Assembly (NCBI GenBank): GCA_021323375.2
Contig: JAJPCT020000016.1
Coordinates: 64,001 to 128,000, forward strand
Source: Candidatus Wolframiiraptor gerlachensis
Lineage (GTDB): Archaea; Thermoproteota; Nitrososphaeria_A; Caldarchaeales; Wolframiiraptoraceae
DNA: 64,000 nt
Direction of reading: 5' to 3'
Part shown: positions 5,210 through 9,964 of the stretch, one piece after another
Layout: each line of letters opens with the position of its first letter
Numbering within the stretch: the stretch's first letter is position 1
Position numbers and translations under genes: made by a program
The notes under the pieces: model-generated
Told to the model about the DNA's origin: nothing
Databases searched by the model: none
Seen by the model: only the letters and a program-made list of their open reading frames with translations

Positions 5210-5803
5210 TTGAGCGGCCTTCTCGATTCCCTGCTTGAGTGGGCTAGACTTCATCTCGTCCCACTGGGGATTCCGGGGCTGATTTTAACGGCCTTCACGG
5301 AGTCCAGCTTCTTCCCAATACCGCCTGATGTCATCCTTATCCCGCTTGCCCTCCTAGACCCCGGAAACGCTGTGCTCTACGGCCTCGTGGCCACGGTCAG
5401 TTCGACGGCTGGAGCCCTCCTTGGCTACTGGATCGGTCTTAAGGGCGGGAGACCCATACTCCTTAAGCTGGCTGGCAAGAAGTCTGTGAAGAAGGCTGAG
5501 GAGTTCTTCAACAGGTATGGCGCCTGGGCTGTTGGGGTAGCTGCCTTCACGCCGATACCCTATAAGGTCTTCACTATAGCCTCTGGAGTATTCATGCTTA
5601 GGAACTTGAAGGCTTTCATCCTCGCATCAATTCTGGGGAGGGGTGGGAGGTTCATGGCCGAGGCAGTGCTCATAATGCTCTTCGGCGAGGAGATATTGTC
5701 ATTTCTCAGCGCGCACTTCGAGCTCATAACAATTCTAGTTGGCGCGGCCGTGATATTTTTCCTAGCGGTATATAGCCTCCTCAGGAGGAGATCACGCTCC
5801 TGA
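5210..5803 (+). CDS. DedA/YqaA (VTT domain) membrane protein
   Basis: AFTESSFFPIPPD and FTPIPYKVFTIASG motifs. Confidence 0.9.
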   Translation: MSGLLDSLLEWARLHLVPLGIPGLILTAFTESSFFPIPPDVILIPLALLDPGNAVLYGLVATVSSTAGALLGYWIGLKGGRPILLKLAGKKSVKKAEEFFNRYGAWAVGVAAFTPIPYKVFTIASGVFMLRNLKAFILASILGRGGRFMAEAVLIMLFGEEILSFLSAHFELITILVGAAVIFFLAVYSLLRRRSRS

Positions 5804-7108
5804 AGCCCTTCTTTTCCCAATCGTTATCCTCGCTGTTATGAGCCTCTCCCCCATGAAGAGCCATGAGCTTAGTAGGAGGAGCAGTGCCGCGAATCCCAGC
5901 ATCACCATTATTGATGTGATCGCGGATGTGATATCGCCCGCGAACCCACCCTGTATCGCGAGGAATAGGTGTGTGAAGGGATCTAGGAGGAGACCTATCC
6001 TGACTCCTATTGGGAGGCTCTCGAGGGGCGCGAAGATTAGGATGAAGAATGGGGGCATTAGGAGTGGGAATGTTATGACCCCGACGAGTTGCTGGGCGCT
6101 CCTGACATCGCTCCCGAGGACGCCGACAAGGAGCCCTATACATGTCATCATCACCATCGCGATGAATATCGCTGAGACGAGTATCGGGATGAAGATGGGG
6201 GATGGCCAGAGGTCGATAAGTGTTATGCTCACCTGCTGGCCTGCGGCAACCTCCTCGACCGGGATCCGCGCCATCATGCTCCCCGCGATCATCAGGCCGT
6301 AGACCCCGAAGCCGACCAGGAATGAGAATGTGCTTAAGAGGACTATAACAAATGTCCCCAAGAGCTTGCTGAGGAGTATTGTTATCCTCCTAGCCGGGAT
6401 CGTTAGGAGCAGCTCAAGGGTCTTGGACTCCTTCTCGAGGGCGATGCTTGTCGCCGAGACCGTGGATGCATAGCTCGCGACCATCACCGCGACTAGTGGG
6501 AGGCCGAAGAGCGTTGTCAGGAAGGTGGCGGCAACGGCGGAGGCAGGAGCCCTCAATATCCTGTCAAGATAAAGCACCATGGAATTCTCTAGGATCGGTT
6601 TCTCGAAGAACCTTGGATCAATACCTCCCCCATGAACTCTCTCAGCCAGAGACTTGAATATATCGAGTAGGATTGTTGAGATCCGCTGGCTCATGCTGAT
6701 CTCGGAGATCGAGGCGGATCTTATGGGGTAGATCGTCATGATCGTGCTCTGGATGCCGGATGTGAAGTTTCTCGTGAAGCCGCTCGGTATTATGATCACG
6801 GCATTGAGCTCCTTTCCGGCCGCCGCCCTGGCGCACTCATCCTCGGATGAGCACTCCACCTTGATGGTCCTAATCCCCTTTTCCCTGAGCAGCTCCGGGA
6901 GATGAGTAGATGTTAGCCATGTCTTTTCTAGGTCAGCTATCCCGATTACAAGGCCCACTTCAGCCCTCTCCATCGCCGCGCTCATCCCAAGGCCAGTCAA
7001 CGCGCCCATTATCGGGAAGACTATTAGCGGGATTATTATCGCGCCTACTAGTATGCTCCTCTCCATCAGGAGCTCCTTAACCTCCTTCTTAAGTAATGGC
7101 CCGAGCAT
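5792..7108 (-). CDS. ABC-2 type exporter permease (NatB-like)
   Basis: IALEKESKTLELLLTIP motif; 1+5 TM topology with large loop. Confidence 0.88.
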   Translation of the reverse strand: MLGPLLKKEVKELLMERSILVGAIIIPLIVFPIMGALTGLGMSAAMERAEVGLVIGIADLEKTWLTSTHLPELLREKGIRTIKVECSSEDECARAAAGKELNAVIIIPSGFTRNFTSGIQSTIMTIYPIRSASISEISMSQRISTILLDIFKSLAERVHGGGIDPRFFEKPILENSMVLYLDRILRAPASAVAATFLTTLFGLPLVAVMVASYASTVSATSIALEKESKTLELLLTIPARRITILLSKLLGTFVIVLLSTFSFLVGFGVYGLMIAGSMMARIPVEEVAAGQQVSITLIDLWPSPIFIPILVSAIFIAMVMMTCIGLLVGVLGSDVRSAQQLVGVITFPLLMPPFFILIFAPLESLPIGVRIGLLLDPFTHLFLAIQGGFAGDITSAITSIMVMLGFAALLLLLSSWLFMGERLITARITIGKRRASGA

Positions 7109-7109
7109 C

Positions 7110-7826
7110 TTAAGCCGCCTCCACCAGCTTCGCGAAGACCTCCTCGAGATTCTGGGCCCGGTGCTCAGCCTTCAGCTCATCAGGCCTGCCCTCCGCGATG
7201 ATCCTCCCGCCGCTCATGAATGCAACCCGGTCACAGAGATACTCTATCTCGAACATGTTGTGGCTGGAAACTATGACGGTTGCGCCGCTCTCCTCCACGA
7301 ACCTCCTTATCCTCCTCCTGATATGCACGGCGTGGATGACGTCTAGACCGGAGGTCGGCTCATCGAGTATCGCAACCCTCGGCCTCAGCATTAATATCGC
7401 TGCGAGGATTATCCTCCGCCTCATACCCTTGCTATAGGATCCCATGGGCTTCCTCAGTGCATCGCCGAGCCCCGCGATCTCCATACCCTCCTTGATGCAT
7501 TCCCGACCCCTGCCATGAACCTCGGCCATGAAGCTGAGAAACTCCAAGCCTGTCAAGTGCCTGTAAACCCCGGCATCCTCCGGCAGATATGCGATGATTC
7601 TCCTAACCCTGTCCGGCTCATCCCTGACGCTGTGACCCATTATGATAGCGTCACCAACATCCGGCCTAAGGATCGTCGCGAGAATCCTGAGAGTCGTCGT
7701 CTTACCGGCACCATTCGGCCCAATCAAGCCGAAGATCTCCGACTCATCAACCTCAAATGAGACGCCCTTCAGAACCTCGAGAGACCCAAACCTCTTAACG
7801 AGACCGCTGGCCACGACAGCCCTCAA
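7110..7826 (-). CDS. ABC transporter ATP-binding subunit (NatA-like); likely TTG start at 7826
   Basis: GPNGAGKTT, YSKGM, LDEPTSGLD, SSH. The ORF-track N-terminal extension lies inside insertion B. Confidence 0.9.
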   Translation of the reverse strand: MRAVVASGLVKRFGSLEVLKGVSFEVDESEIFGLIGPNGAGKTTTLRILATILRPDVGDAIIMGHSVRDEPDRVRRIIAYLPEDAGVYRHLTGLEFLSFMAEVHGRGRECIKEGMEIAGLGDALRKPMGSYSKGMRRRIILAAILMLRPRVAILDEPTSGLDVIHAVHIRRRIRRFVEESGATVIVSSHNMFEIEYLCDRVAFMSGGRIIAEGRPDELKAEHRAQNLEEVFAKLVEAA

Positions 7827-8071
7827 GCATAAATCCCTTGAGGCTTGTAATCTTTTAGGATTTCTATTTTTCTCATATTGCTCCTTGCCTCTCAAATCTT
7901 CTACTAGGGCTAACTGGATTTTGCATGCATTATACATTACTTTACTTTAATATTCATAACTCATAATATCAGCCATCATAAGAGGCTTGACACCATCTCC
8001 CGAGTCTTGAATCTCCATCAACACGTCCGGAACTGCCTCGATCGTCCTATCTTTTCTTTATTGCTTCTATT

Positions 8072-8539
8072 ATGGAAATTCCATGGAAGCATGGGCGGAT
8101 TATCGATGAAAAGAACTTGAAGAACTTGATAAAAAAATAGACCCTACTACAACCTCAAGGAACCATTAAGGCTCATAGGTAATGATGATGGGGAAGAAGT
8201 TTATGAGAAGACCTATAAAATCTTTTGGGACAAAAGGAGCGTTGAAGAAACTATCAAATTATATTGTCGATAGGGTTACCACTCCATTTGCTGGTAGTAA
8301 GGTTGGGGATTTCTGAGATGAGATCGATTCTGGGTGGAGGTGGAGGGTGATGAGGGTGATATACTCGTAAGTTAAGATCACATGTTGCGGCTATTGTAGC
8401 AAATCTTTACGCGTATGTTAGAAGGAATGTAAGCGTTTCGGATGAAATTGCCAATGTTGCTGAGTGTATGTCCAAAAATCAGGCGATAGTTAAATTGAGG
8501 CTGACGACTTTGGAGGCGTTAAGAAGAGCATACCCATGA
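8072..8539 (+). pseudogene. Degenerate C-terminal half of the IS110/TasR-like protein
   Basis: Fragments ILSIGLPLHLLVVRLG and YTRKLRSHVAAIVANLYAYVRR...IVKLRLTTLEALRRA align with ILIVKLPLNWKLAKLKG and YNHKLRANLSNIAANIYLNYKR...IFRLEIRILKALKRA. Frameshifts present; start approximate. Confidence 0.7.
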
Positions 8540-8547
8540 CAAAGCCG

Positions 8548-8693
8548 CTGGCCAGCAAGTTCTCGTAGCCATAAAGGCCAGCAAGCCAAGCCTTAAACCA
8601 TCCATGGATTCATAAAGATAGAAATCCATCCTCCATGGTGGCAGCTTCCGCCAGCTCTACTGGCCTTTATGGCTTTTAATACCCGCCGGCCAG
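8548..8693 (-). ncRNA. Putative dual-guide hairpin RNA, copy B (inverted relative to its ORF)
   Basis: Perfect 15-bp stem 8567-8581/8660-8674. The TAAAAGC...GCTAC motif and G-U wobbles occur only on the minus strand. Loop strands match flanks 8974-8984 (11/11) and 7837-7846 (8/10). Confidence 0.75.
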
Positions 8694-8962
8694 TCCCACC
8701 CTCCATTTTTGCCTTAGCCTTAGTATGTTTAGATTGGATCCTAACTTTGTCTGAACATGTAAAAGAGCTTCTGTCAACTTAGCAAGTAATCTCTTCAAGT
8801 CCTTTATCTTGACGTATGCGCTGATATAAAGATGCTTTTCATCCCTAACTCTATTATCCTGATCCTTCTCAGAAATATAGCTGGTTATCAGCCTCGGCCA
8901 CAGGATCCCAGACTATGGGTTTAGGCATTGGAGCTTAGCTTCCTCAACATATACCTTCTCCT

Positions 8963-9907
8963 CTAGATCTTGAGCTTCCGCCAGTCGCCCCTGATCTCGG
9001 GTTCGCCCCTAAGCCTTCTCAGGTAATTGTGTGCGGATAGTGCAGCTATCGCGCCCTGAGCTGCTGCTATCACGGCCTGCTTGTATGGCATATCGCAGAC
9101 GTCGCCGGCCGCGAAGACTCCCTCCCTGCTCGTTCTGCCAAGCCTGTCCGTTACAATCTCGCCGCGCTCGTTTAGCTCGATGAATCCCTTGAGCCACCCC
9201 GTATCCGCCGCGTATCCGAGCTCCACGAAGACACCATCAACCTCCAGCTCAATTCTCTCTCCCCTCTCAACTCCCCTCAGGATCAGCTTTCTAACCACGA
9301 TATCGCCGACCACTTCCTCCACCCTCACGCCCGTCATAACCTCCGCGCCTAATCCTCGCAGCTCCCTCAGGAGCCGATCATCCTCCCTAGGCCGCCCCGA
9401 GTAAATCACATAAACCATGTTATCGTAGTTTCTGAGTATCGTGGCAGCCTCATGTGCTTGATCGCCCCAGCCGACTACGGCCACCCTCCTGCCCCTGTAT
9501 AATGGCGCATCGCAGATGGCGCAGTAACTGACACCCCTACCCGCGAAGACATTCTCACCCGGAACACCCATCTTCCTCGGCTTCTTCCCGATAGCGAGGA
9601 TCAGCGCCCGCCCCTCATAGTCACCGCCCCTGCACTTGACCCTGAAGCCGCCCTCCACTTCCTCAACGCCAATCGCTTCATCATAGGATATCTCGGCCCC
9701 AAACTCTCTAGCCTGCTCGAGAATACTGTTCACGAGCTCGAAGCCCGAGACCGAGGGCGAGGCCGGGAAATTCTCTATTCTTGGTACTGTGAGAAGCTGG
9801 CCGCCAATATCCATCGTAACAACAAGTGTTCGCAGACCCTGTCTAGCGGAGTATAGCGCCGCGGTAAGGCCGGCAACACCGCCGCCCACAATCAGTACAT
9901 CATACAT
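8963..9907 (-). CDS. trxB: Thioredoxin reductase
   Basis: GGGVAGLTAA, GVSYCAICD (CxxC), TSREGVFAAGD; likely start MYDVLIVG. Confidence 0.92.
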   Translation of the reverse strand: MYDVLIVGGGVAGLTAALYSARQGLRTLVVTMDIGGQLLTVPRIENFPASPSVSGFELVNSILEQAREFGAEISYDEAIGVEEVEGGFRVKCRGGDYEGRALILAIGKKPRKMGVPGENVFAGRGVSYCAICDAPLYRGRRVAVVGWGDQAHEAATILRNYDNMVYVIYSGRPREDDRLLRELRGLGAEVMTGVRVEEVVGDIVVRKLILRGVERGERIELEVDGVFVELGYAADTGWLKGFIELNERGEIVTDRLGRTSREGVFAAGDVCDMPYKQAVIAAAQGAIAALSAHNYLRRLRGEPEIRGDWRKLKI

Positions 9908-9964
9908 CGCTAGCCTACTTATTCGGCGGAAGCTATAAAGCATGCTCTAGAGCCTTGGAGAAGG

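What the first reader, a model, noticed from the sequence alone, without database searches (positions are those of the whole stretch)
7823..8984. Insertion B split a trxB-ABC operon exactly at the guide-predicted core
Seen: the minus-strand loop strands CTGGCGGAAGC and TTTAAGGCTT match the trxB 3' end (8974-84) and 7837-46. Joining at GCTT gives TGG CGG AAG CCT CAA GGG ATT TAT GCT TGA, whose stop overlaps the ABC ATPase TTG start (TTGA), a typical coupled-operon junction. The element supplies a replacement tail (LKI*). This is independent support for the guide hypothesis.
Basis: partly seen in the sequence, partly recalled or inferred. Interest (0 to 1): 0.82.

Follow-up and report, generated by a model that had tools for sequence, protein, structure and literature searches.

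The report
RNA-guided insertion splitting trxB from ABC genes
A decayed mobile element sits in the last codons of a thioredoxin-reductase gene at the spot matched by the two loop strands of its own hairpin RNA, and it belongs to an unannotated archaeal family related in fold to bridge-RNA recombinases.

Summary
Element-free relatives (G002, G011, G008) have trxB ending ...RKLKP*, then a gap of about 50 nt (counted from the last aligned trxB codon) before the TTG-start ABC ATPase. So the tail is not WRKPQGIYA and there is no stop/start overlap. Their empty site carries TTTAAGGCTTG directly followed by AGCTTCCGCCAG. These equal one loop strand and the reverse complement of the other (11/11 and 12/12). 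The junction repeat is CTTG (7844-7847 and 8969-8972), not GCTT. The insert is 7848-8968.

The insert is a dead copy of a multi-copy element: 26 places in this 1.28-Mb genome. An intact element is a 286-315 aa ORF followed by a ~145-nt hairpin RNA with one variable internal loop. The ORF has no Pfam hit at threshold. Its predicted fold matches the ISCro4 and IS621 bridge recombinases and TIGR-TasR.

At 8 of 9 sites with an empty counterpart, at least one loop strand matches its half-site by 10 or more exact nt.

In B the ORF is truncated, the hairpin is inverted, and 257 extra nt lie at the right end.

I found no donor-binding loop and no conserved catalytic serine. The mechanism is therefore inferred, not shown.

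The parts
7110..7826 (-). ABC transporter ATPase, TTG start at 7826-7824
   Evidence: Pfam ABC_tran E 2e-26. The same TTG start and N-terminus are seen in 14 relatives' loci.
5792..7108 (-). 438-aa ORF downstream of the ATPase; presumed permease, not tested
   Evidence: ORF list only.
7827..7836 (.). Remnant of the native trxB-ABC spacer, about 35 nt shorter than in G002
   Evidence: Comparison with L023 and L022.
7837..7847 (+). Left half-site. It matches the loop strand TTTAAGGCTTG at 9/11 here and 11/11 in the empty sites of G002 and G011
7844..7847 (.). Left copy of the junction repeat CTTG
   Evidence: native sequence runs up to 7847.
7848..8968 (+). Inserted DNA, 1121 nt, 36-46% G+C against 52-60% in the flanking genes. 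It consists of a decayed element plus 257 extra nt
8261..8533 (+). Remnant of the C-terminal ~90 residues of the element's ORF
   Evidence: blastx against the genome's own copies, best E 6.5e-18.
8545..8696 (-). Hairpin guide-RNA module, inverted relative to the ORF remnant and to the G005 copy at the same site
   Evidence: Covariance model R1 scores 118.5 bits on the minus strand and 65.7 on the plus strand. Fold -88.6 kcal/mol, z -7.6. Flanking motifs keep the + orientation.
8643..8654 (-). 5' loop strand of the RNA (CTGGCGGAAGCT on the minus strand); it pairs with the + strand of the right half-site
8587..8597 (-). 3' loop strand of the RNA (TTTAAGGCTTG on the minus strand); identical to the + strand of the left half-site
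8694..8711 (+). Canonical right-end tail (C-rich, then TTTTTG), as at the right end of the G005 copy
8712..8968 (.). 257 extra nt, absent from the G005 copy. 8864-8968 is 86% identical to the 3' coding part of a 301-aa gene 16 kb away
8969..8972 (.). Right copy of the junction repeat CTTG; it lies within the native trxB codons L-K
8973..8984 (+). Right half-site AGCTTCCGCCAG, inside the trxB 3' end
8963..9943 (-). Thioredoxin-reductase-like gene. Its tail is RKLKI* here and RKLKP* in element-free relatives
   Evidence: Pfam Pyr_redox_2 E 1.9e-37.

Best explanation
Window 7848-8968 is a dead copy of an RNA-guided, site-specific mobile element.

Intact relatives of this element carry two parts. 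The first is a 286-315 aa protein with a RuvC-like (DEDD-type) N-terminal domain, a coiled coil and a helical C-terminal domain. Its predicted fold matches the IS110-type bridge recombinases and TIGR-TasR. The second is a ~145-nt hairpin RNA directly 3' of the gene, at the right end of the element. The internal loop of this RNA has two variable strands of about 11-12 nt.

One loop strand is identical to the top strand of the left half of the target. [quoted passage not shown] So each strand can pair with a different DNA strand, as in the target-binding loop of a bridge RNA.

I infer that the protein-RNA complex recognises the uninterrupted site and inserts the element at the boundary of the two half-sites. 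Insertion is in a fixed orientation and leaves a short repeat at both junctions (CTTG here).

Element B went into the last codons of trxB. It replaced only the final proline and the stop, and it separated trxB from the ABC transporter genes. Later it lost two thirds of its ORF, had its hairpin inverted, and gained 257 nt at its right end.

Shown: the insertion, the empty site in relatives, the loop/half-site identities, the RNA structure, and the fold class of the protein.

Inferred: that the RNA is made and guides insertion, the chemistry of the reaction, and how the element's own ends are recognised.
For: Empty site. G002, G011 and G008 have trxB and the ABC ATPase contiguous. In G002 and G011 the two loop strings lie side by side at 11/11 and 12/12; in G008 they are 10/11 and 11/12.

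Same site in the closest relative. G005 carries a related ~650-nt element at the same site and in the same orientation, with near-identical loop strands.

Family.
- There are 26 distinct places in G000, 12 in G005 and 8 in G002, and none in the other 38 of 41 relatives searched.
- The RNA lies directly 3' of the ORF in G000 and in 6 of 14 loci from other Nitrososphaeria genomes.

RNA structure. 95% of cells are paired. 14 of 40 pairs show compensatory changes, and 0 of 500 shuffles reach that. Slid controls give 25-44% paired. The stems are conserved and the loop strands vary.

Guide rule at other sites. Of 9 sites with an empty counterpart, 8 have an exact match of 10 or more nt on at least one half, and 6 have it on both halves. 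One example: the loops of a G005 element match 13 + 10 nt of the empty site in G000.

Position-specific control. Own guides reach 10 or more of 11-12 nt in 4/26 and 7/26 copies. Guides from other copies do so in 10/650 and 21/650 comparisons.

Junction repeats. They are 3-8 nt at 8 elements.

Orientation. The rule is the same in all 7 subfamily-1 sites, counting B and its G005 counterpart as one site.

Protein.
- The AlphaFold model has pLDDT 90.4.
- Foldseek top hits are ISCro4 9t56, TIGR-TasR 9mty and IS621 8wt6/8wt9, with E from 9e-7 to 7e-6 and TM 0.57-0.62.
- D8, D28, E46, D50 and D95 are invariant; E59 and D92 are nearly so.
- There are sub-threshold PF01548 hits in 19 of 37 members.

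Geometry. It matches the IS621 target-binding loop as described in PMC11208160 (passages read).
Against: - No second variable loop for the element's own ends was found. Left and right ends are not conserved between elements.
- No conserved serine follows the GLTP motif, where canonical IS110 proteins have an invariant S-G. This comparison was anchored on motifs by eye. No residue-level superposition could be run.
- Profile comparison with canonical archaeal IS110 proteins is not significant (E 0.21). No PDB sequence was hit.
- The protein is as similar in fold to the nuclease TasR as to the recombinases.
- In G000, 13 of 26 copies reach 10 or more matched nt on no side under any of the four tests, and cross-copy guides reach that level in 1.5-6.5% of comparisons, so some of the 13 that do may be chance.
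- My first, unpositioned k-mer control hardly separated own pairs from cross pairs (0.93 against 0.64 matches per pair).
- The overlap of the two guide-matched halves varies from 0 to 4 nt. The junction repeat varies from 3 to 8 nt. So no fixed core could be defined.
- No RNA data, circle junction or empty-site read was found.
Confidence: 0.72

Rival explanations
1. RNA-guided homing. The protein is a TasR-like RNA-guided nuclease and not a recombinase. With its single dual-guide RNA it cuts the uninterrupted allele. The element is then copied in by homologous repair from an occupied allele. This is how homing endonuclease genes spread, and how TnpB helps IS605-type elements persist.
For: - There is a single guide loop and no donor loop.
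- No conserved serine lies where IS110 recombinases have theirs.
- The fold matches TasR as well as it matches IS621.
- Each copy has its own guide for its own unique site.
- The guide site is destroyed by the insertion, which would give self-immunity.
- The element ends are not conserved.
Against: - A short repeat was seen at every one of the 8 mapped elements. Homing does not need this.
- Orientation relative to the guide is constant in 7 of 7 subfamily-1 sites. It is the reverse at the 2 mapped subfamily-2 sites, with one-sided support from 2 more copies. Independent founding events under homing should give random orientation.
- Homing does not explain how new sites and matching guides arise.
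Confidence: 0.2
2. The core is GCTT. The ancestral trxB ended in WRKPQGIYA, with its TGA overlapping the TTG start of the ABC ATPase.
For: GCTT stands at 7843-7846 and 8974-8977, and the join is in frame.
Against: - Three element-free relatives, and the ABC-side flank of G005, show ...RKLKP, then TAA, then a spacer.
- The repeat of AAGC within the native site explains the false core.
Confidence: 0.02
3. The loop strands are a record and not a guide. Flanking sequence was copied into the hairpin at or after insertion.
For: The two loop strands equal the two 3'-ended strands that a break at the site would give. This is my own inference. Every copy has a different loop.
Against: - No known mechanism does this.
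- Related systems with the same fold class use such loops as guides (PMC11208160 and PMC12045711, passages read).
- The loops of the G005 copy and the window copy have drifted from the flanks, as expected of a dead guide. The comparison does not tell in which direction the information flowed.
Confidence: 0.04
4. Chance similarity between a palindromic repeat and its surroundings, with the AT-rich stretch being ordinary intergenic DNA.
For: The 9/11 match at 7837-7847 is within chance on its own.
Against: - The 12-mer is unique to the loop and the junction.
- The empty sites in relatives argue against chance.
- The same rule holds at other sites.
Confidence: 0.01

Closest known systems
IS110-family bridge recombinases (IS621, ISCro4) with bridge RNA
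   Same: - Predicted fold class.
- A structured RNA encoded in the element.
- An internal loop whose two strands pair with opposite strands of the two target halves.
- A short sequence repeated at both junctions.
- Site- and orientation-specific insertion without terminal inverted repeats.
(PMC11208160, passages read.)
   Different: - No Pfam PF01548 or PF02371 hit at threshold.
- Profile comparison is not significant.
- The protein is 286-315 aa.
- No conserved serine in the loop after GLTP.
- Only one variable loop, with no donor-binding loop found.
- The guide strands are 11-13 nt.
- Nearly every copy in one genome has its own guide and its own unique site.
IS1111 group and seekRNA
   Same: The non-coding RNA lies downstream of the transposase gene at the right end of the element, and it selects the target (PMC11187229, abstract and passages read; PMC11208160).
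   Different: No sub-terminal inverted repeats of 11-13 bp were found at the ends of two intact elements; only scattered short inverted repeats were seen. The protein is not detectably related in sequence.
TIGR-TasR (RuvC + Nop-domain RNA-guided nuclease)
   Same: Fold match equal to that with IS621 (9mty, E 1e-6). Two short spacers pair with opposite DNA strands. No serine nucleophile is needed (PMC12045711, abstract and passages read).
   Different: TIGR guides stand in tandem arrays and are cut to 36 nt. Here there is one long hairpin per element, and the unit is mobile, with insertion polymorphism between species.
Box C/D snoRNP (Nop5) guide RNAs
   Same: A two-guide RNA bound by a RuvC-like/coiled-coil/Nop-type protein, a relationship proposed in 10.1101/2024.06.21.599552 (abstract and passages read). 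3pla appears only far down the fold list, at probability 0.12.
   Different: The targets here are the DNA flanks of the element, not rRNA. No C/D boxes were looked for in a formal way.

Membership tests
IS110 family (bridge recombinases) | Pfam DEDD_Tnp_IS110 (PF01548) plus Transposase_20 (PF02371) at the curated threshold | tested here: not met
   - 0 families at E <= 0.01 for 3 intact ORFs.
- PF01548 only sub-threshold, in 19 of 37 members; best E 0.0042 (the one score printed, for P0001, is 15.4 bits against a cut-off of 29).
- PF02371 is not among the 25 families listed of 33 at E <= 1.
- NCBIfam transpos_IS110 E 0.013-0.1.
- PF02371 was not found in G000.
IS110 family (bridge recombinases) | RuvC-like domain + coiled coil + helical C-terminal domain fold, with conserved acidic residues | tested here: met
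   Foldseek: 9t56, 8wt6 and 8wt9 at E 9e-7 to 7e-6, probability 1.00, TM 0.57-0.62. D8, D28, E46, D50 and D95 are invariant; E59 and D92 are nearly so. Which four residues form the active site was not determined.
IS110 family (bridge recombinases) | Highly conserved serine in the C-terminal (Tnp) domain | tested here: not met
   Canonical archaeal IS110 proteins have invariant S250-G251, five residues after the GLVP motif. This aligns with the S-G of IS621. In the 37-member alignment no serine is conserved between G214 and A237; S190 is the only invariant serine. The comparison is anchored on motifs by eye. The structural aligner was busy, so no residue-level superposition was made.
IS110 family (bridge recombinases) | RNA loop whose two strands pair with opposite strands of the left and right target halves | tested here: met
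   Geometry compared with PMC11208160.
IS110 family (bridge recombinases) | Second (donor-binding) loop matching the element's joined ends | tested here: not met
   The covariance-model alignment shows only one variable internal loop. The ends of 9 mapped elements are not conserved and, by eye, do not match the RNA. A donor guide outside the 145-nt module is not excluded.
IS110 family (bridge recombinases) | Circular intermediate and precise excision | not testable with these tools
   Only contigs of public runs could be laid, and no joint across the insert was seen.
IS1111 group | RNA-coding non-coding region downstream of the transposase gene | tested here: met
IS1111 group | Sub-terminal inverted repeats of about 11-13 bp | tested here: not met
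   No end-to-end inverted repeat in two intact elements. One of them has a 12-nt, 92% inverted match between its left end and the hairpin stem. This was not seen in the other ends listed.
TIGR-Tas | Tandem array of guide units | tested here: not met
   There is one hairpin per place. The places are scattered over 19 of the 27 contigs, and the closest pairs lie about 1-2 kb apart. No tandem-repeat search was run.
TIGR-Tas | RuvC + Nop-domain protein with two spacers on opposite DNA strands | tested here: met
   9mty at E 1e-6, TM 0.58-0.59; guide geometry as above.

The most novel reading that the evidence does not exclude
This is a serine-less, single-loop, RuvC/Nop-fold RNA-guided mobile element of thermophilic Nitrososphaeria, a form lying between the TIGR-TasR nucleases and the IS110 bridge recombinases. 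It would insert at a 23-nt site specified by one dual-guide loop. It would do so either through chemistry that does not use the IS110 serine (the near-invariant Tyr225 is a candidate nucleophile) or through guided cleavage and homing. Each lineage would be dedicated to one unique genomic site. Inversion of the palindromic guide module, seen in B, could be a recurrent way to switch or disable the guide.
Probability: 0.3. Interest if true: 0.9.

Novelty: new variant of a known kind. Interest (0 to 1): 0.7.

Why it matters
The corrected junction turns a suggestive match into a clean occupied/empty pair. The two loop strands of the element's RNA spell 23 contiguous bases of the uninterrupted site.

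Eight further sites were compared with an empty counterpart. Together they indicate that a protein family annotated only as 'hypothetical' is an RNA-guided mobile system. The family has 146 homologues in the protein search. The three nearest Atlas clusters hold 122, 57 and 956 members.

Surveys that select bridge recombinases by the two Pfam domains would not pick this family up. Examples are the methods of PMC11208160 and of 10.64898/2026.10.21.760802 (passages read).

The proteins are small and come from hot-spring archaea. They have long guide strands, one loop and no conserved serine. They could therefore show how guided nucleases and guided recombinases are related, and they may be of use as compact, heat-stable tools.

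For the host the effect looks mild. trxB loses one residue, and the ABC genes are cut off from whatever transcription came through trxB.

Tried and rejected
- Rfam at gathering threshold found only two tRNAs in the window and nothing in the insert.
- An HMM of four family members found no PDB sequence at E <= 10.
- hhalign against one canonical IS110 protein, and against an alignment of 20, gave E 0.13 and 0.21. Only the KSDxxDA stretch aligned.
So there are no Z-scores and no residue-level check of the serine position.
- My first control for loop/flank matches, any k-mer of 9 or more within 2.5 kb, was too loose: 26 own matches in 28 copies against 0.64 per cross pair. I replaced it with the positioned test.
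- A scan for the reversed rule gave little beyond B itself. The structural guide extraction does not fit subfamily 2 well.
- Looking for a donor guide, I compared the ends of nine elements with their RNAs by eye and found nothing consistent. A 10-nt identity between B's apical-loop insertion and its left end is within chance for 1.1 kb.
- Sequencing runs: no RNA holder was listed.
- Contigs of four runs were laid. X2 and X3 each hold the whole insert in one contig, with 5 changed letters and a 1-nt gap. No contig joins across the insert and no circle junction was seen. One X5 contig leaves the window at 7832 into a G002-like spacer.
- Box C/D or H/ACA guide RNA was considered and dropped, because the loops match the elements' own DNA flanks.
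- A non-standard genetic code for the ORF-less insert was considered and dropped, because blastx shows an ordinary truncated ORF remnant.
- Literature searches for prior description:
  - 'bridge RNA' + IS110 + archaea gave 22 papers.
  - 'bridge recombinase' + archaeal + compact gave 5 papers.
  - IS110 + Nitrososphaeria gave 0 papers.
  - seekRNA + IS1111 gave 20 papers.
  - Nothing I saw of these papers (the search listings, and abstracts or passages of six of them) describes this family. Supplementary tables were not seen and might list members, for example the 662 archaeal IS110 proteins of 10.1101/2024.06.21.599552.
Full report
**What is at the coordinates.**
All three genes lie on the minus strand.
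- 8963-9943 is a thioredoxin-reductase-like gene (Pyr_redox_2, E 1.9e-37).
- 7110-7826 is an ABC ATPase with a TTG start (ABC_tran, E 2e-26).
- 5792-7108 is a 438-aa ORF.
- Between trxB and the ATPase lie about 1.1 kb with no ORF longer than 44 aa. G+C there is 36-46%, against 52-60% in the genes.

- The 12-mer AGCTTCCGCCAG occurs exactly twice in the window, at 8643-8654 and at 8973-8984.
- The second loop string, TTTAAGGCTTG (minus strand of 8587-8597), matches 7837-7847 at only 9/11. On its own that is within chance.

**The empty site.**
- I searched 41 related genomes with trxB. In 14 of the 19 loci fetched, the ABC ATPase follows trxB on the same strand.
- In 13 of these the distance from the last aligned trxB codon to the TTG start is 15-65 nt. 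It is 701 nt in G005 and 1139 nt in the window.
- The closest element-free relatives are G002, G011 and G008, with trxB 91, 83 and 82% identical. In all three trxB ends ...DWRKLKP, then TAA.
- Read on the window's + strand, the G002 and G011 sites carry TTTAAGGCTTG directly followed by AGCTTCCGCCAG. One loop strand therefore matches 11/11. The reverse complement of the other matches 12/12. The two matches are contiguous.
- G008 has one change in each half.

**The corrected junction.**
- Native sequence in the window runs up to 7847 on the ABC side. It resumes at 8969 on the trxB side.
- CTTG is present at both junctions (7844-7847 and 8969-8972).
It arises because AAGC occurs twice in the native site.
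The tail WRKPQGIYA and the stop/start overlap are therefore not ancestral.
- With the correct join, the window would read RKLKP and then run on for six codons to a TGA. The reason is that the relatives' TAA reads CAA here and about 35 nt of spacer are missing. G005 still has the TAA, so these are later changes in this lineage.
- Only ATC TAG of the present trxB tail comes from the insert.

**What the insert is.**
- The stretch 8547-8693 recurs across the genome. An iterated nhmmer search gave 28 hits. A covariance model found 26 distinct places in G000, 12 in G005 and 8 in G002, as I count them from the listing. It found none in the other 38 of 41 relatives.
- The RNA folds into a long hairpin (z -7.6). 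It has an outer stem, an inner stem, an internal loop of about 14 + 14 nt and a conserved apical hairpin.
- On 16 sequences, 95% of cells pair. 14 of 40 pairs show compensatory changes, and 0 of 500 shuffles reach this. Slid controls pair at 25-44%.
- About 56 cells are G-U pairs by my count. This favours folding of the sense strand.
- The stems are conserved and the two loop strands differ in nearly every copy.
- In most places the hairpin lies directly after a recurring ORF, overlapping its end. Six copies of this ORF are intact at 286-315 aa, and many are broken.
- The same gene-then-RNA order is seen in 6 of 14 loci from other Nitrososphaeria genomes. By record title these include Candidatus Geocrenenecus.

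**Element B itself.**
- B keeps only the last ~90 codons of the ORF, on the + strand at 8261-8533. The hairpin follows.
- The hairpin is inverted. Its flanks keep the + orientation, but the module scores 118.5 bits on the minus strand against 65.7 on the plus strand.
- In G005 the copy at the same site has the usual orientation, opposite to trxB. Of four places shared between G000 and G005 or G002, only B shows such an inversion.
- Inversion leaves the RNA sequence unchanged.
- The usual right-end tail is at 8694-8711. In G005 the equivalent tail abuts trxB directly.
- In the window 257 more nt follow. The last 105 of them are 86% identical to the 3' coding part of a 301-aa gene 16 kb away. 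They are 88% identical to that gene's counterpart in G005. I cannot explain this piece.

**The guide rule elsewhere.**
- In ORF orientation, subfamily-1 elements have the 3' loop strand identical to the left flank. The reverse complement of the 5' loop strand is identical to the right flank.
- I compared nine sites with an empty counterpart:
  - B against G002, G011 and G008;
  - three G000 elements against relatives;
  - five elements of G005 or G002 against G000.
- Eight of the nine have an exact match of 10 or more nt on at least one half. Six have it on both halves.
- The clearest case is a G005 element whose loops match 13 and 10 nt of the uninterrupted G000 site, overlapping by 4 nt.
- One site (L060) shows only 9/11 and 7/11, by eye.
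- All eight mapped elements have a short repeat at both junctions: CTTG, TTG in G005, GAGCTT, GTAGC, ATAGGTTT, AAGA, TGAA and TTGGA.
- A positioned control gave own guides at 10 or more matches in 4/26 and 7/26 copies, against 10/650 and 21/650 for guides of other copies.

**Results against the rule.**
- In G000, 13 of 26 copies reach 10 or more matched nt on no side under any of the four tests.
- The unpositioned control barely discriminated.
- The two mapped subfamily-2 elements follow the mirror-image rule.
- Two subfamily-1 copies show the mirror pattern on one side.

**The protein.**
- No Pfam family was found at E <= 0.01.
- All 146 homologues in the protein search are unnamed or 'hypothetical', and none carries a Pfam domain.
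- PF01548 appears below threshold in 19 of 37 members.
- The AlphaFold model is confident (pLDDT 90.4, pTM 0.83).
- Its best Foldseek matches are the ISCro4 and IS621 recombinases and TIGR-TasR. All have E near 1e-6 and TM about 0.6.
- Sequence profiles do not connect it to canonical archaeal IS110 proteins.
- Canonical proteins have an invariant S-G after GLVP, aligned with the S-G of IS621. The name S241 for that serine is recalled; no call gave it.
- This family has a shorter loop there with no conserved serine. It has a near-invariant tyrosine instead.
- The Atlas search places the protein next to three unnamed Nitrososphaerota clusters, and then next to IS110-domain clusters.

**How it most likely works.**
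- The geometry equals that of the IS621 target-binding loop. [quoted passage not shown]
- The geometry, the junction repeats and the constant orientation within subfamily 1 make RNA-guided, directional insertion the best reading.
- The missing donor loop, the missing serine and the equal likeness to TasR keep a guided-nuclease homing model alive. I put it at about 0.2.
- Both readings explain why each copy is dedicated to one unique site.

**Comparison with what is known, and verdict.**
- The family works like an IS110/IS1111 element, with the RNA at the right end as in IS1111 (PMC11187229). It fails three defining tests of IS110 membership: the Pfam domains, the conserved serine and a second loop.
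- It shares the dual-spacer principle with TIGR-Tas but has no array.
- Nothing I saw of the papers found (search listings, and abstracts or passages of six) describes it. Supplements were closed.
- The finding is real and useful as support for the guide idea. Its junction, its core and its reconstructed gene end need the correction given here.

Noticed in passing
window 23831-24803 (+): An intact copy of the family: a 286-aa ORF (23831-24691) followed by its hairpin RNA (about 24671-24797; subfamily 2). Its ends and target were not mapped.
   Followed up: partly
window 52735-53245 (+): A decayed ORF remnant (tblastn 52735-53093) followed by a hairpin (53112-53238). The reverse complement of its 3' loop strand recurs as 10 exact nt about 98 nt downstream. 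This fits the mirror-image rule of subfamily 2.
   Followed up: partly
window 8545-8696: The whole palindromic guide module of B is inverted between its outermost inverted repeats, relative to the G005 copy at the same site. Two other subfamily-1 copies (G000 C25:78747-78897 and C10:17580-17726) show a one-sided pattern that such a flip would give.
   Followed up: partly
window 8712-8968: 257 nt of extra DNA lie at the right end of B. A 105-nt piece of it is 86% identical to the 3' end of a 301-aa gene at G000 C16:56729-56833. By eye that gene looks eIF-2B-like; this was not tested. The piece is flanked by TTG on both sides.
   Followed up: partly
L088 (G002 C7), around position 1494: At the site occupied in G000 by the C4:7350 element, G002 has no element but carries 9 extra nt equal to the last bases of that element. 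This may be a footprint of imprecise loss.
   Followed up: no
L082 and L069 (G005, G002) against G000 C3:31508 and C17:122676: Subfamily-2 elements have the 5' loop strand identical to the left flank, and the reverse complement of the 3' strand identical to the right flank. This is the opposite orientation of element to guide compared with subfamily 1.
   Followed up: partly
window 7827-7843: In this lineage the native trxB stop reads CAA instead of TAA, and about 35 nt of the trxB-ABC spacer are missing compared with G002 and G005. I take this as decay after the insertion.
   Followed up: yes
L022 (G005 C1), about 800-1500: The closest relative has a ~650-nt element at the same trxB site. It lacks the extra 257 nt, and its trxB tail is extended by seven element-encoded residues (RKLKNRSGAGQ*).
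   Followed up: yes
protein alignment A3, residues 214-230 of the window copy: Tyr225 is present in 35 of 37 members and is Phe in two. It sits in the short loop where IS110 proteins carry their conserved serine-bearing loop.
   Followed up: no
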